64,000 nt of DNA, from the NCBI RefSeq assembly GCF_006345805.1, contig NC_043018.1, positions 4,836,001 through 4,900,000 on the forward strand, read 5' to 3'. This DNA comes from Octopus sinensis (Eukaryota). The number at the start of each line of letters is the position of its first letter. Position 1 is the first letter of the stretch. Of the stretch, positions 8,235-15,689 are shown in pieces. The translations under genes were made by a program, and so were the position numbers. Below the pieces are notes generated by a model. It made no database searches and was not told the DNA's origin. It worked only from the letters and a program-made list of their open reading frames with translations.

Positions 8235-9493
8235 TAATTTGTGTTGGTTATCATGTGTCACTGTGCAAGCCAATGAATTACTCTTTTAGTGGTGTTCATT
8301 GCTGGGACACTGGGACAGCTACTATTTCTGAAGTGCTACCATTATTATTTGTATCTCATCTGTCAACCTGTAATTCGCACCATCTCATGGTACCAGCAGA
8401 CAAAACCCTAACCCTAACCCCAGAAGATGGCGAGGGAGATGTGCTGGATCTGTCAAACAGGGCTCACACTTGCAGATAGCCATCTCCACCCCAATGACGG
8501 GGAGCAGGGTTATGTTCTGGGAGCCAAGAATGTCATAGGTCTCCACTGCCATAGGCTTGACCATAAACCTGACAAGCAGTGGAGCCTAGCTGGTGGCTGA
8601 ACGCACCTGGTTGCTGCTGGAGAAAGTATCACAGCGTGTGACATCCCATATGAGGGGCCTACCACCTTGGAACAGGAAAATTGTCATACTGTAAGAACTT
8701 TTACTGTCACCTTGGGTTGAACTGCGAAGGGAAGTTTGTACTGTGTATGCCATGCTTTATGATTTTGTTTCGAGTGGTATGGCATGGAAGGCAGCCTAAC
8801 AATGGGTGCAGACCAAAAGAATCCACAGAGGCTCACAAACCTGGAGGCTGCTTGTAGACACGGCATAAGGAAAGTTCTGTTAATAAAATTAAAGGGTTTC
8901 ACTCATCCTCTTTCTGGAATTGTGGGATCCATCTACCTTCCTTTGCAGTTAATTTACTTTCTTTTCGAATCCTTAAACTGCATGCAAACTGGAATAAGTC
9001 ATTTTCTTTACAATAAACTTTTTGTAGTTTTTTTAGGACATTTTTCCATTTTGAAGCTGAAGATTATTTCTAAAATCAGCTTTGATATTTGAAACTCTAT
9101 TATTCAATGTGGAAACTTGATTTACGAAGTATATGAAGTGGTCACTCATCACTCATCACTATCCGAGTGAAATAAGAAGACAATATAAAGAGTGAAACGG
9201 AAATGATGAAATGGTAATTCTGTAGAAATAAACTACAAATCAAATAATTTAAATAAAATTAAAAGAAATTAGAAAGAAGGAAAAGTCTTTTTAATATGGC
9301 AAAAGCCAGATCCGTTCTAAAAGGGAAACCATGGCAACCGAGGGGCAACTGCACATTTATATTTTTTGTCTGTTTTTGAATCCAATTAATGGTTTTGCTC
9401 CTTTCCCATTTCAGATAGAACACACCAACATCTAGAGCAACAACAACAACAACAACAACAGCAAGAGCCACAACAGTAAGAAGAAGAACAAAT

Positions 9494-9698
9494 ATGAAGT
9501 TCCACACAGTATTGTTTCTCAGTTTATTTATGTCTACATTCTACCTTCTCACGGCTCATGATACAGCAGCTTCATCATTATTGCCATCATCATCATCACC
9601 AGCAGCAGCAGCACCAGCAGCAGCAGCAGCAGCAGCATTAACAGCATCAACTCCAGACATCAACATCATCAGGCTCGACACCAACCAGAACGCATCAG
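9494..9698 (+). CDS. Candidate small secreted/membrane peptide gene, coding exon 1 (signal peptide + Ala/Ser/Pro-rich spacer)
   Basis: Acceptor with pyrimidine tract (tttcccatttcag) ends at 9414; ATG at 9494; MKFHTVLFLSLFMSTFYLLTA is signal-peptide-like; donor CAG|GTTTGT after 9698 (205 nt, phase 1). Confidence 0.6.
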
Positions 9699-9804
9699 GT
9701 TTGTTATAGTTACGTATGCAGGTCAGGGCCAAAGATTTTGTCGGTTGAGAGAAAAACAGAAATCTGAGGGAAGTCCAAATATGGAAATGTTTATGGTTAG
9801 TGTC

Positions 9805-10110
9805 AGCCGTCGTTCAGTTACAATGACGAAGGTCTCTGGCTGATCCATCAATGGAACAGCCTGCTCATGAAATTAGTGTGTAAGTGGCTGAGTACTTCAC
9901 AGACGTAGTTCTCAGGGAAGTTCAGCAATGACATGGAATGTGACAAGGCTGACCCCTTCGAATTACAGGTACCACTCATTTTTACCAGTGAAGTGGACCA
10001 GAGCAATGCAAAGTAAAATGTCTTGCTCAAAGGAACAACAAGCTGCCTGGAATCGAACTCACAACCTTACGATTATCAGCCAAATACCCCTAACTACTAA
10101 TCCATGCACT
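9805..10110 (-). mobile_element. SINE family C copy (tRNA-like head)
   Basis: Shared body GTGGCTGAGTACT.CACAGAC..GTAGTTCTC..GTGACAAGG; B-box-like GGAATCGAACTC on +. Other copies at ~34050, ~47990, ~56197. Confidence 0.7.
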
Positions 10111-10783
10111 TTCATTTATGGTTAATAAAAAGAAATACTATCATTTCAATAATGAAAGATATTTACACTGAGTGAGTCAATTTGTGTGAGATGTGTCTCT
10201 CAGCAATAATTACAGATTGTTGAAGGCATTGGATTCCACAGCTGAAGTTGAGTGGTGTAAGTTCCAACATCAAGTTGGCTTTACAATCTATAACTACCTA
10301 ATGGTCTATCAAAGAAAGGGTGCCAAAGACAAAGTTGTTAATGACATTTCAATATGTTGTTTGCAATTGGGATGCTGACAAGTTAAGCATCTGTCAGGTC
10401 TGTGTGGTTTTTTGCTGGTAAAAAGAAGTTCTTAACGTGTCTATCAAAGACTTGACCATTTAGAATTCCTATTAGTCTGTCCAATGAAATGCTTATTTAT
10501 TCACATTGTTTTGAATTTAGCAAGTGTTATCTCATAGCTTTGAGATTTAGTTTTAAGCTGACATTGTAGGTTAGGTGTGAGAAGCCAGATCTATCTGACC
10601 TGAACATAAAACAAGCAGAATATTTGGGTCAGTTTAAATGCTAATGGGATAATTAGCTGCTGCTTGCTAATGTCAGTTACTGACCAAATCCTGTTATTTT
10701 CACATGTGAATTTAATGGTTTGTATTCAATTCCTAGGCAGTGGGTTGGGTTGTTTGGGATTCTGCTAATATTCTATTGTGTGT

Positions 10784-10975
10784 AAAGCGGCGAGCTGGAA
10801 GAAATGTTAGCACACCGGGTGAAATGCTTAGTGGTATTTCGCCTGTCTTTATGTTCTGTGTTCAAATTCCACTGAGGTCAACTTTGCCTGTCATCCTTTC
10901 GGGGTTAGTAAATTAAGTACCAGTTGCATACTGGGTTGATCCAATTGACTGGCCCCAAAATTTCAGGCCTTGTGT
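10784..10975 (+). mobile_element. SINE family B copy
   Basis: GCGGCGAGCTGG..GTTAGCAC..GTTCAAATTCC..TCATCCTTTCGGGG..AAGTACCAGTTG..CAGGCCTTGTG; many copies in the window. Confidence 0.8.
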
Positions 10976-12963: not shown

Positions 12964-13017
12964 AGTTTGACCAAATGTGTTCCACTTGTGACGCTTGCCC
13001 TTGTTTATGTTCTTTAA

Positions 13018-13225
13018 CCCTTTTGGTACCAACCTGCCTCTCACTTGTCTCTGACTCTCTTGTACAAATGTCTTGTTTTCAAATAGAATTAAAATATTCC
13101 ACCAAATCTTAGTTGTAATTTATGTTCCTAACACAAACTTAAAAAGTTATTTTATTAAATTCTTTGTTATTTTTAAAAGTGAAATAAACACAGAACATCT
13201 CAACAGAAATATGGTAACAAAAGGG
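13018..13225. mobile_element. piggyBac-type MITE
   Basis: TTAA|CCCTTTTGGTACCA at the left end; TGGTAACAAAAGGG|TT at the right end (13/14 TIR match). Confidence 0.65.
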
Positions 13226-13841
13226 TTCCATTTTAAAAAATAATGCCAAGTTTATGTCTTTGTTTTCTTAAATTTTTCTTTATGAGTGAGTATTATTTGA
13301 AGGCAGCTGCTATTTCTAGCAGGTTGAACAACCACATAGTTTTTCTCATTGGGTTAAAAGAGAGTATATAACAAAGGGAAATATAAAACTGTTTGTAGGA
13401 CGGAGGCTGAGTTCCTTGGGTGTTGTCCAATGTCAGTCTCATTACATCTTTGCATATCACTAGGCATGGAACTCCCAAGACTACCTAGAGAAGGTGATGT
13501 TGCAGGCCTGTTACCATTCTTTGGTGCCTGGAGATGCTTCAGAATATTCGGAGGGCATTAATTTGTAATACTGCTAAAGTGGAGTTTCGAAATAAGTGTA
13601 TCACTGTAAATCTGAGGGGACACCATTGAATAGGGAGGAGTGTGGGGAGCAGTACTGTCCAGTGCACACCCTTAGTGATGGGCATGGTTGGCAGCAGTTT
13701 GGCCTCCTGGCAATTGTAACTTGGCCCTTTTCTGTAAGTAGTGAAAGTGTATCTAATCCAATTTGGTTTTCTGTTTTGATTGTTGCCTCATTTCTTGTTG
13801 TGATCCATGTTCAATGTCTCTTTTTCCATTTCTTTTTCCAG

Positions 13842-14035
13842 CTCCGCTTGTCAACGATGAACCAGCAGTGCAGGCTAAGCCCGGTATCATTAAGAGTTTG
13901 GGAAACAGTATAAAATCGTACTTGGTTCGAATAAGAAAAGCAGTTTTCAACCATTCTCTCATCATTGGTCCAGTTGTTGTCACTGCTTTTGTTGTTGGGG
14001 TAACAGTGTTAACGCACCGGAACCGATTCTCTTAA
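13842..14035 (+). CDS. Candidate small secreted/membrane peptide gene, terminal coding exon (cationic amphipathic helix + hydrophobic tail)
   Basis: Strong acceptor (tctctttttccatttctttttccag) ends at 13841. Phase 1 joins exon 9494..9698 to give (A)PLVNDEPAVQAKPGIIKSLGNSIKSYLVRIRKAVFNHSLIIGPVVVTAFVVGVTVLTHRNRFS*. AATAAA at 14397-14402. Confidence 0.6.
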
Positions 14036-15689
14036 CCGATTCCTCGCTCTATGCAGGCGTTATCATATTTTATTAAGAATCTTTAAATTCACTCTTAAAT
14101 AGAAGGAACACAAGATTCAGAATTTGGAGAATTTTTGCCAAGTGACAAGGCATTTCTATAGAAGAGAAGCATAAATGAAAATGGCAAGTTTGAAGAAGTT
14201 CCATTCTTTCTTGTTTAGATTTGAGATAAAAAACAAAATCCAAAGTACCTTTAACTGCTTTCAATGGTGACTAAGATAAGTTGTTATAAAGACTAATTAC
14301 TCTGGTTAATTTGTTATAAAAACGTCTTGGATATAACTTGTGGAATTTTTGAAAGCTGCACCGAGCAAAAAAATAGAAAAATGTTCTCTTCACAAAAATA
14401 AATGCATTTTGCCCCTTTTTGTTATTGTTTTTTGTTGCTATCAATTGGACATCTGACCTAAGACACTCCCGGCAATGACCACTTGCTCATTTGCTTTATC
14501 ATGTTTGATGTTAACTAAACGGCCGCCCATTACACGAATTTTGGCACTTTGGATTGATGCAGCTTTTGTTTCACCTCAGTTCAACATTCACTGAGTTGGC
14601 CTGTAGTTAAAAACGAACCGATGCTCTCTTTCGGTCTTTAGTATTGGCTAGGAAGGAAATTTGGCAGTTTTTGTCTATCAAGCCGAATGGTATGTATTTG
14701 TAATGGAACTCTAAAATCATGACATTACATTACAAGGGTCGAGCTTTGAATTACAAGTACAATCAAATCGAAGAAAGTACTTGAGTCGATTCGTTCGACT
14801 AAAATTCCTCAAGGCGGTGCCCCAGCATGGCCGCCGTCTAATGATTGAAACAAGCAAAATATAAAAGATAACATACTACTACTACCACCACCACCACCAC
14901 CACCACCGAGGATTGAAACTGTAGCGGGGTCATAGATTTCGGCGATGTTATCTCCATCTATAGCATGCGGGTGATATTTACTAAGAGGTAGTCTGTCGAA
15001 AGAATGACGTGTAGAAAAGGGTCCTCAACCGAGTCGCTCGACCTGCTAGAAATAACAAGATATATCCCAGACCAAACCTTTATCGTCTCTAAAAAAAACC
15101 CCAAAAAACTAGATTGTCGAGACTTGAGTGTCTTCGAAATCAAGTTTTGTTTCATCAGCACCGACCAAAATGTAAAGAAAAATAATAATTATCGAAAGGT
15201 TGCTAAATTATCTCTATTTTAATAGCAACAAGCGCTAAAACAGCAACAATAACGACAGCAACAGCAACAACAGCACTTTTGAAATGTCCTGGATAGGAAA
15301 GAGAGGGAGAGAGTAAAGAAGAAAGAAGAGAAAATAAAGAGAGAGAGAACGAGACGACGACGAGAAAAAAGAGAGGATGATGACAAGAGGAGACGAGAGA
15401 GAGAGAGAGAGAGAAGGAGAGGAATGAATGGAAGAAAGGCAAAGAATAAGCAATGAGAGTAAGAAAGTAAAAAAGACGAGTGTTTTGAGAGAAGAAGAAG
15501 GTAGAGATACTAATGGGAGTGAGGAGAAGGAGGAGGAGGAGGAGTTGGTGAATGAAGGAGAGTTGTGGAAGGAGAAGTTGTGGAAGGCGTGACTGAGTAG
15601 GAGTTGAAAAAAGGTGCAGCGAGGAAGACTGAATGCAGGCTAGAAATACCTATCAAGTATAGCATTAATGAAACGTCATTGTCGTGACT

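What the first reader, a model, noticed from the sequence alone, without database searches (positions are those of the whole stretch)
9415..14402. Orphan spliced gene with antimicrobial/cytolytic-peptide-precursor architecture
Seen: two exons with good acceptors and matching phase give 132 aa. There is a signal-peptide-like N-terminus, a low-complexity mildly acidic spacer ending EP-AV-QA-KP, then GIIKSLGNSIKSYLVRIRKAVF (hydrophobic residues at 2,3,6,10,13,14,17,21, i.e. an amphipathic helix), a Gly-Pro hinge and a hydrophobic segment (IIGPVVVTAFVVGVTVL). From KP to the end there are 8 K/R and no D/E. Known: cecropins have a cationic helix, GP hinge and hydrophobic helix, and cecropin/melittin pro-pieces are trimmed as X-Pro/X-Ala dipeptides. 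Inference: a lineage-specific host-defence or venom/skin peptide precursor, or alternatively a tiny single-pass or GPI-anchored protein. The ORF track does not show it as a unit.
Basis: partly seen in the sequence, partly recalled or inferred. Interest (0 to 1): 0.75.

Follow-up and report, generated by a model that had tools for sequence, protein, structure and literature searches.

The report
Octopus-only small membrane-anchored protein pair
This is a real, spliced octopus gene with a diverged twin next door, and it likely encodes a small membrane-anchored cell-surface protein rather than a free antimicrobial or venom peptide, although its positively charged helix could still be cut loose to act as one.

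Summary
The gene is real. The 132-aa product equals RefSeq's uncharacterised Octopus sinensis LOC118767532, with orthologues in O. vulgaris and O. bimaculoides and no relative found outside octopuses. Residues 79-132 are nearly invariant.

It shares the first exon, signal-peptide exon and 3'UTR at about 70% identity, and the layout signal - spacer - amphipathic helix - N-x-S-L-I - hydrophobic segment. Its helix is only weakly basic, it has no X-Pro/X-Ala ladder, and it ends like a GPI signal.

The focal hydrophobic segment has transmembrane length and strength and is followed by a basic tail. The dipeptide ladder lies 53 residues from the predicted signal cut, with no dibasic site before it.

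Best reading: a small membrane-anchored surface glycoprotein (0.6). A tethered or shed cationic peptide, newly gained in this copy, is not excluded (0.2); the ladder is complete in the orthologues and in 4 of 4 laid runs. A free cecropin-like peptide is unlikely (0.1).

The parts
5709..5739 (+). CRE-type palindrome TGACGTCA (5709-5716) and a half site (5734-5739) at the 5' end of exon 1; also present in the paralogue. Motif name recalled; function untested
5736..5963 (+). Exon 1, non-coding (no ATG), donor GAG|GTAAGT; 5' end not fixed (contigs begin at 5728 and 5736). Homologous to exon 1 of the tandem paralogue, which lies upstream of the window (L017:120-8541, 156 aa, LOC118767561)
9415..9698 (+). 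Exon 2: 79-nt 5'UTR with (CAA)n, ATG 9494, residues 1-68, phase-1 donor
9494..9556 (+). Predicted signal peptide, residues 1-21 (cut after L-T-A judged by eye from the -3/-1 rule; no predictor run)
9557..9698 (+). Ser/Ala/Pro-rich spacer, largely read from CAT/CAG microsatellite; N-glycan sequon N66; the most variable part between species
13842..14420 (+). Exon 3: residues 69-132, stop 14033-14035, 3'UTR, AATAAA 14397 (one contig runs on to 14500)
13859..13882 (+). X-Pro/X-Ala dipeptide ladder E75-P82 (broken by V78 in this assembly; A or P elsewhere)
13883..13948 (+). Cationic amphipathic helix G83-F104 (predicted), with an RK pair at 100-101
13949..13957 (+). N-H-S (S-H-S in O. bimaculoides; N-A-S in the paralogue): candidate GPI attachment site
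13958..14014 (+). Hydrophobic segment L108-T126, Kyte-Doolittle 19-mer mean 2.43: predicted membrane anchor
14015..14035 (+). Short basic tail H127-S132 and stop
14054..14071 (+). 3'UTR stretch homologous to the paralogue's last six codons (reads QALSYF in frame behind the stop; the paralogue ends QMSSYF; 14 of 18 nt alike)

Best explanation
The gene is a spliced three-exon octopus gene, one of a tandem pair, and it likely encodes a small cell-surface glycoprotein that stays fixed in the membrane by its C-terminal hydrophobic segment. Shown: gene structure, orthologues in three Octopus species, paralogy, near-invariance of residues 79-132. Inferred: the signal peptide is cut after A21; the Ser/Ala/Pro spacer is a flexible, probably glycosylated stalk; helix 83-104 lies flat on the outer membrane face; L108-T126 either spans the membrane with H127-S132 inside (about 55%) or is exchanged for a GPI anchor at N105 (about 45%). 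The working part would be the conserved helix plus anchor, most likely docking on a partner membrane protein or on acidic lipids, as small single-pass regulators do. The basic copy and its acidic twin would have different partners under shared transcriptional control.
For: Hydrophobic 19-mer mean 2.43 (focal) and 2.27 (paralogue); values above about 1.6 usually mark membrane-spanning segments (own knowledge). Signal peptide plus C-terminal hydrophobic segment is the layout of type I and GPI-anchored proteins (PMC7865462 passages; PMC8331152 passages). Paralogy at DNA level against 2,000 dinucleotide shuffles: exon 1 z 10.5, acceptor-UTR-signal z 14.2, 3'UTR z 11.4; 0 of 2,076 background windows reach the exon-1 score. 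The paralogue has an ectodomain of net -10 (focal -3), net +2 from helix start to end (focal +7), no dipeptide ladder and an uncharged tail. Both copies conserve helix plus anchor and let the spacer drift: focal 1 change in 54 against 11 in 58 columns (p 0.004); paralogue 2 in 43 against 25 in 92 (p 0.002), last 27 residues unchanged in 3 of 3 sequences aligned. Against run X10, residues 79-132 show 3 silent and 1 replacement change among the rows displayed, omega about 0.11, p 0.050. The single replacement, N105S, keeps a residue that suits a GPI site (own knowledge).
Against: No topology, GPI or signal predictor could be run; no localisation, tissue or partner data. Protein-level likeness between the paralogues is weak: BLASTP none, HHalign 1.4%, shuffle p 0.013-0.037 for the C-terminal module. 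The coding DNA of exon 3 aligns about equally well in frame and in a shifted frame, so helix and anchor may not be homologous between the copies. Three K/R lie just before the hydrophobic segment and only two after it, against the positive-inside rule. The GPI spacer is not hydrophilic (L-I-I follows N-H-S). A cleaved GPI signal would not be expected to be invariant. The focal copy alone has a four-dipeptide ladder directly before its helix (chance 0.2-9% depending on the null). AlphaFold models are low-confidence (pLDDT 53 and 39).
Confidence: 0.6

Rival explanations
1. Tethered precursor of a membrane-active peptide, gained in this copy after duplication. The protein is anchored; a protease cuts the spacer; dipeptidyl peptidase trims the ladder to G83; the cationic helix is then displayed on a GPI anchor at N105 or shed at the RK pair (100-101) as a 17-23-residue peptide acting on microbes or prey membranes.
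For: The ladder is complete in O. vulgaris (A78), O. bimaculoides (P78) and 4 of 4 laid runs, and both alternatives at position 78 keep it. It ends exactly where the amphipathic helix starts. Ladder and strong positive charge are absent from the paralogue. UTRs and signal exon stay about 70% alike while the mature regions no longer align, a pattern recalled from venom and defence peptide families.
Against: No KR/RR before the ladder; the only basic residue in the spacer (R60) is M in O. bimaculoides. No Gly for amidation before RK. The spacer is rich in Pro and Ala and the helix start was chosen after the fact. No expansion beyond two copies found (counts in this genome are lower bounds). No peptide or accession in the held part of an O. 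vulgaris skin-mucus PSM table that does list LOC1187 entries (file cut when stored, 510 proteins).
Confidence: 0.2
2. Free secreted cecropin- or melittin-like peptide: the 50 residues G83-S132 are released and form pores by a cationic helix, a hinge and a hydrophobic helix.
For: A basic amphipathic helix followed by a more hydrophobic segment matches the cecropin plan, and 50 aa is within the 34-55 range (PMC6929098 passages). Precursors with a propeptide between signal and mature peptide exist (PMC7551771 passage).
Against: The precursor is 132 aa against 58-79 for cecropins; no Trp; no amidation Gly. In the insect peptides the X-Pro dipeptides follow the signal cut (PMC12882233 passage); here 0-1 dipeptides can be removed from any of six candidate cuts. 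No cecropin or melittin family among Pfam rows at E up to 10 for the whole protein, exon 3, or residues 84-132. A 19-residue segment of hydropathy 2.43 behind a signal peptide would likely stop transfer into the ER (inference). The paralogue lacks the cationic character.
Confidence: 0.1
3. Intracellular membrane protein of the ER or Golgi: a small single-pass regulator or lipid-packing sensor whose lumenal amphipathic helix abuts the membrane anchor and which never reaches the surface.
For: Same anatomy as the best explanation. The paralogue ends in two aromatic residues and the focal tail carries R-x-R, both like ER sorting motifs (recalled, untested).
Against: The two tails are not homologous, so no shared sorting motif. 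A low-complexity, sequon-bearing stalk is more typical of surface proteins (own knowledge).
Confidence: 0.1

Closest known systems
RefSeq uncharacterised LOC118767532 (O. sinensis), LOC106878720 (O. bimaculoides), CAI9739163.1 (O. vulgaris)
   Same: The same protein and its orthologues (100%, 92%, 99% in the alignment).
   Different: They carry no functional annotation; no paper found for these identifiers.
LOC118767561 / LOC106878719 / CAI9739164.1 (tandem paralogue, L017:120-8541)
   Same: Three-exon plan, phase-1 intron behind the signal exon, homologous exon 1, signal exon and 3'UTR; helix, N-x-S-L-I and hydrophobic segment.
   Different: 156 aa, acidic ectodomain, weakly basic helix, no ladder, uncharged tail, stop codon at another position.
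Small GPI-anchored or single-pass surface glycopeptides (CD24/CD52 and FAM174 type; CD24/CD52 recalled)
   Same: Signal peptide, short low-complexity stalk, C-terminal membrane anchor. DUF1180 (FAM174-like) gave E 0.044 with one orthologue.
   Different: No significant sequence similarity (14.7 bits against a cut-off of 27.7); a conserved cationic amphipathic helix sits next to the anchor.
Insect cecropins (PMC6929098, passages)
   Same: Basic amphipathic helix, then a Gly-Pro-containing hydrophobic part; size of the putative mature piece.
   Different: Much longer precursor, ladder far from the signal cut, no Trp, no amidation signal, anchor-grade hydrophobic segment, no Pfam match.
Melittin and aculeatoxins (PMC8971319, passages)
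   Same: Signal peptide, acidic region, amphipathic helix.
   Different: Their propeptide is repetitive and highly anionic; here the spacer has 5 D/E in about 60 residues and only the last 8 form dipeptides.

Membership tests
Cecropins | Match to the family profile | tested here: not met
   No cecropin row at E up to 10; HMMER filters drop most matches above about 0.1
Cecropins | Precursor 58-79 aa | tested here: not met
   132 aa (range from PMC6929098)
Cecropins | N-terminal basic amphipathic helix of the mature peptide | tested here: met
   Moment 0.61, charge +5, shuffle p 0.007; mature start assumed at G83
Cecropins | [quoted passage not shown] | tested here: inconclusive
   G111-P112 present but inside the hydrophobic stretch; the low-confidence model shows one helix 83-130
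Cecropins | Trp at position 1 or 2 (most members) and C-terminal amidation (several) | tested here: not met
   No Trp in the protein; it ends in R-F-S without Gly; neither feature is universal
Cecropins | X-Pro dipeptides directly after the signal cut | tested here: not met
   0-1 dipeptides removable from cuts after residues 21-26; the ladder starts at E75
Cecropins | Antibacterial activity, immune induction | not testable with these tools
   No assay or tissue data
Melittin / aculeatoxins | Repetitive, highly anionic propeptide | tested here: not met
   5 D/E in residues 23-81; four dipeptides only
Melittin / aculeatoxins | Venom-gland expression, lytic activity | not testable with these tools
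   Tissues of the runs are not given
GPI-anchored proteins | N-terminal ER signal sequence | tested here: inconclusive
   Hydropathy 1.57 over residues 3-21 and a -3/-1 pattern by eye; kept in the paralogue; no predictor run
GPI-anchored proteins | Small-residue attachment site separated from the hydrophobic domain by a short hydrophilic stretch | tested here: inconclusive
   N105 (S in O. bimaculoides) 27 residues from the end; N131 25 from the end in the paralogue; the following stretch is not hydrophilic
GPI-anchored proteins | C-terminal hydrophobic domain without a charged tail | tested here: inconclusive
   Met in the paralogue; the focal tail has two Arg
GPI-anchored proteins | Release by PI-PLC or GPI-PLD | not testable with these tools
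   Experiment (as in PMC8331152)
Type I single-pass membrane proteins | One hydrophobic segment of about 19 residues after a cleaved signal | tested here: met
   L108-T126, mean 2.43; by hydropathy only
Type I single-pass membrane proteins | More positive charge on the C-terminal (cytosolic) flank | tested here: inconclusive
   Two Arg after, three K/R within ten residues before
FAM174 / DUF1180 | Profile score above the curated cut-off | tested here: not met
   14.7 bits against 27.7 in 1 of 3 queries

The most novel reading that the evidence does not exclude
After a tandem duplication in octopuses, one copy of an acidic GPI-type surface protein was rebuilt into the precursor of a membrane-tethered lytic peptide. 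It gained a cationic amphipathic helix, a dipeptidyl-peptidase ladder that ends exactly at the helix start, and a new basic tail, leaving the old C-terminus as a relic in its 3'UTR, possibly through a frameshift that turned Glu/Asp codons into Lys/Arg. The product would be a lipid-anchored or shed defence peptide that arrived at the cecropin/melittin plan independently.
Probability: 0.2. Interest if true: 0.65.

Novelty: new member of a known kind. Interest (0 to 1): 0.33.

Why it matters
As an anchored orphan it is a modest result: an annotated but unstudied octopus-restricted gene pair in which UTRs and signal exon stay about 70% alike while the mature proteins no longer align, with opposite charge and non-homologous tails. 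That makes it a compact case of fast divergence after duplication, perhaps with a switch of anchor type. If the cationic helix is released or displayed, it would add a dedicated, gene-encoded membrane-active peptide to a group in which few are characterised: a 2020 paper named only OctoPartenopin for O. vulgaris (PMC7693380 passage), and an annotation-based search of cuttlefish haemocytes found no AMP (PMC7551771 passage). The test is cheap: three synthetic peptides and one tagged construct.

Tried and rejected
Artefact or chance ORF: rejected.

Distant relatives: exon 3 against 1.84 billion representatives gave only the O. bimaculoides orthologue; word searches gave 2 proteins among 50 and 436 candidates; the paralogue's exon 3 gave 4 among 5. 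How well these collections cover squid and cuttlefish was not checked, so 'octopus-only' means 'not found elsewhere here'. ESM Atlas gave no usable hit twice (a blank shows nothing). PDB sequences gave two light-harvesting alpha chains at E about 0.5, a hydrophobic-helix likeness only. Pfam gave nothing at cut-off for either gene.

AlphaFold models were too weak for a fold search, which was not run. No complex prediction was sent, as no binding is claimed.

Sequencing runs: no RNA holder on record was listed; 4 of the 24 listed runs were laid, all contigs with RNA status guessed, so tissue, level and start site are unknown; unlaid small-share runs were not used. In X4, exon 2 was not covered at 9541 and exons 1 and 3 lay on separate contigs.

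Further copies: none in 144 kb around the gene or in genome searches; the genome searches also missed the known paralogue, so diverged copies elsewhere are not excluded.

Literature: no paper for 14 identifiers or peptide strings. Supplement searches were empty for salivary-gland papers PMC7693380 and PMC11525497 (no positive control run, and the latter's datasets are filtered peptide lists) and for brain atlas PMC9712504, whose held files contain no LOC1187 id and one of which was unreadable. Unseen or cut supplements may hold expression data. PMC2120449 gave no passage; one GPI search found no paper.

Positive selection between paralogues: not shown; silent sites are near saturation (pS 0.71-0.79, pN 0.35-0.49). 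In-frame against frameshifted homology of exon 3: unresolved. A numerical comparison with cecropin and melittin hydropathy was left out, as no tool supplied those sequences. Earlier scan notes: none near or alike; the 8 shown of 43 did not bear on this gene.

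
Full report
Observation. A search with the exon-3 peptide returned the same 132-aa protein as RefSeq LOC118767532 of Octopus sinensis, on a contig of the length of G000:C22, and a 131-aa O. bimaculoides orthologue; an O. vulgaris member differs by one residue. Four runs of contigs (RNA status guessed by the tool) were laid on 4000-15200. 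In X1 one 1169-nt contig covers 5736-5963 and 13839-14500 with 275 nt between; in X10 one 1068-nt contig does the same with 291 nt between. In X1, X9 and X10 the same contig depth stands at 5891, 9541 and 13869. The three exons sum to 1171 nt against 1169. So there is a non-coding first exon ending GAG|GTAAGT. The junction rows themselves were among 269 hidden rows; the exact joints are inferred.

Anatomy. Residues 1-21 look like a cleavable signal peptide (judged by eye; the Asp at 17 in O. bimaculoides fits a cleaved signal rather than an anchor). Residues 22-74 are a Ser/Ala/Pro stalk read largely from CAT/CAG repeats; that DNA matches many simple-repeat places in the genome (72 matches including itself, 40 of 527 candidates scored). 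Residues 83-104 form an amphipathic helix (moment 0.61, +5, shuffle p 0.007); L108-T126 has a mean hydropathy of 2.43; a six-residue tail with two Arg follows. AlphaFold gives helices at 2-27 and 83-130 at low confidence (pLDDT 53). Between O. sinensis and O. bimaculoides there are 2 changes in 21 signal columns, 11 in 58 spacer columns and 1 in 54 from residue 79 on (p 0.004). Against run X10 the displayed rows give 3 silent and 1 replacement change in that part, omega about 0.11, p 0.050; 137 rows were hidden, so the silent count is a lower bound.

The dipeptide ladder. In this assembly V78 breaks it, but T13869C (Ala) stands in 4 of 4 laid runs, and the orthologues have Ala or Pro. Four X-Pro/X-Ala dipeptides ending at the helix start arise in 0.2-9% of shuffles, depending on the stretch shuffled. 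Against it: in insect peptides such dipeptides follow the signal cut (PMC12882233 passage), whereas here at most one dipeptide can be removed from any cut after residues 21-26, the ladder starts 53 residues later, and no KR/RR precedes it. Cecropin precursors are 58-79 aa, mostly with Trp at 1-2 and often amidated (PMC6929098 passages); none of these holds, and Pfam lists no cecropin or melittin family.

The paralogue. A loose TBLASTN of 144 kb around the gene showed a second signal-peptide exon 4.5 kb upstream of the window. It belongs to a 156-aa gene on the same strand: exon 1 ends at L017:362, exon 2 is L017:5445-5640 with ATG at 5526, exon 3 starts at L017:8186 and stops at 8539-8541 (LOC118767561; LOC106878719 in O. 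bimaculoides; consecutive accessions in O. vulgaris; plus an unnamed 67%-identical Logan protein). It has the same plan: non-coding exon, signal exon with 81 nt (focal 79) before the ATG, phase-1 intron, last exon. DNA homology is clear for exon 1 (z 10.5), acceptor-UTR-signal (z 14.2) and 3'UTR (z 11.4), about 70% identity in aligned columns. Both carry TGACGTCA at the 5' end (2 of 4 such sites in 144 kb). The proteins barely align, yet the order helix ending I-K-S, N-x-S-L-I, Pro, F-V-V-x-V-T-x-L recurs (12 of 27 identical, shuffle p 0.013-0.037). The paralogue is acidic (-10 against -3), only +2 from helix to end (against +7), has no ladder and no charge behind its hydrophobic segment; its last 27 residues are unchanged in the 3 sequences aligned (the O. 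vulgaris model P0010 ends differently and was left out). Its last six codons match the focal 3'UTR at 14054-14071 (14 of 18 nt, on the diagonal of the UTR homology, p 0.016), so the two stops and tails are not homologous. Upstream of that point two alignments compete: in frame with a 42-nt indel that holds a short tandem duplication (banded z 3.3 and 2.1 under two scorings), or colinear but frameshifted (z 1.3 and 5.5). I cannot decide between them; direction is unknown without an outgroup.

How it likely works. A signal peptide with a C-terminal hydrophobic segment of this strength usually ends in the membrane, as a type I protein or through GPI exchange (PMC7865462 and PMC8331152 passages; stop-transfer argument from own knowledge). 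The paralogue's uncharged end with small residues 25 from the C-terminus looks like a GPI signal. The focal copy keeps N-H-S (S-H-S) 27 from the end but has a basic tail, so I put it at about 55% transmembrane and 45% GPI. In both copies selection holds helix plus anchor and lets the stalk drift, so I infer that the working part is at the membrane surface and docks on a partner protein or on lipids (0.6). Points against: no predictor or experiment, weak protein homology, charge flanks that do not follow the positive-inside rule, and an invariance that a discarded GPI signal would not need. The main rival is a tethered precursor from which the cationic helix is exposed or shed (0.2), then a free cecropin-like peptide (0.1) and an ER/Golgi regulator (0.1).

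Known and new. Both gene models are in RefSeq as uncharacterised. No relative outside octopuses was found among named hits (P0011 is unnamed), no family profile, and no paper for their identifiers or two peptide strings. Neither protein appears in the held part of an O. vulgaris skin-mucus PSM table that does list LOC1187 entries (file cut). Papers seen: passages of PMC6929098, PMC12882233, PMC8971319, PMC7865462, PMC8331152, PMC7551771, PMC7693380 and PMC10138644; abstract and outline of PMC11525497; supplement searches of PMC7693380, PMC10138644, PMC11525497 and PMC9712504; none read whole. CD24/CD52, the CRE name, the hydropathy threshold, GPI-site residues, ER sorting motifs and the conserved-UTR pattern of toxin families are recalled.

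Verdict. Observation confirmed and extended; interpretation partly supported. Interest 0.33; new member of a known kind; novel case 0.2 with interest 0.65.

Noticed in passing
window 106-1737 (+): Reverse-transcriptase ORF (RVT_1, E 6.9e-31) of a LINE-like element lying between the two paralogues.
   Followed up: partly
window 28305-28982 (+) and 53097-53648 (+): A second RVT_1 fragment (E 7.3e-26) and a GIY-YIG fragment (E 3.1e-06), likely retroelement remains.
   Followed up: no
L019:4154-4471 (+), about 26 kb upstream of the window: Exon with a SNF2-related domain match (E 2.6e-05, just under the cut-off): the nearest conserved neighbour found, useful for synteny.
   Followed up: partly
window 5709-5739; L017:121-140: Paired CRE-like sites kept at the 5' end of both paralogues; suggests shared cAMP- or stress-linked control (recalled motif, untested).
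   Followed up: partly
window 13869: The assembly has T (Val78) where 4 of 4 laid runs, including one of the same organism label as the best DNA holder, have C; a private allele or an assembly error.
   Followed up: partly
window 14020-14050: A short tandem duplication (AACCGATTC twice) spans the focal stop codon, in the stretch that the paralogue may lack.
   Followed up: partly
L017:5445-5525: The paralogue's leader in exon 2 is open in frame; O. bimaculoides and O. vulgaris models (P0012, P0010) start upstream and add about 30 residues before the signal peptide. P0010 also ends differently.
   Followed up: no
window 9426-9481 and 9564-9671: CAA repeats in the 5'UTR and CAT/CAG repeats coding poly-Ser and poly-Ala; another frame reads poly-His and poly-Gln.
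   Followed up: partly
window 9850-13230 (intron 2): Several high-copy interspersed repeats (very high summed contig depth) and a 33-bp repeat in 3.2 copies at 12865-12970.
   Followed up: no
window 37882-38461, 53888-54188, 55298-55573: Tandem repeats of period 291 (2 copies), 102 (2.9 copies) and 13 (21 copies).
   Followed up: no
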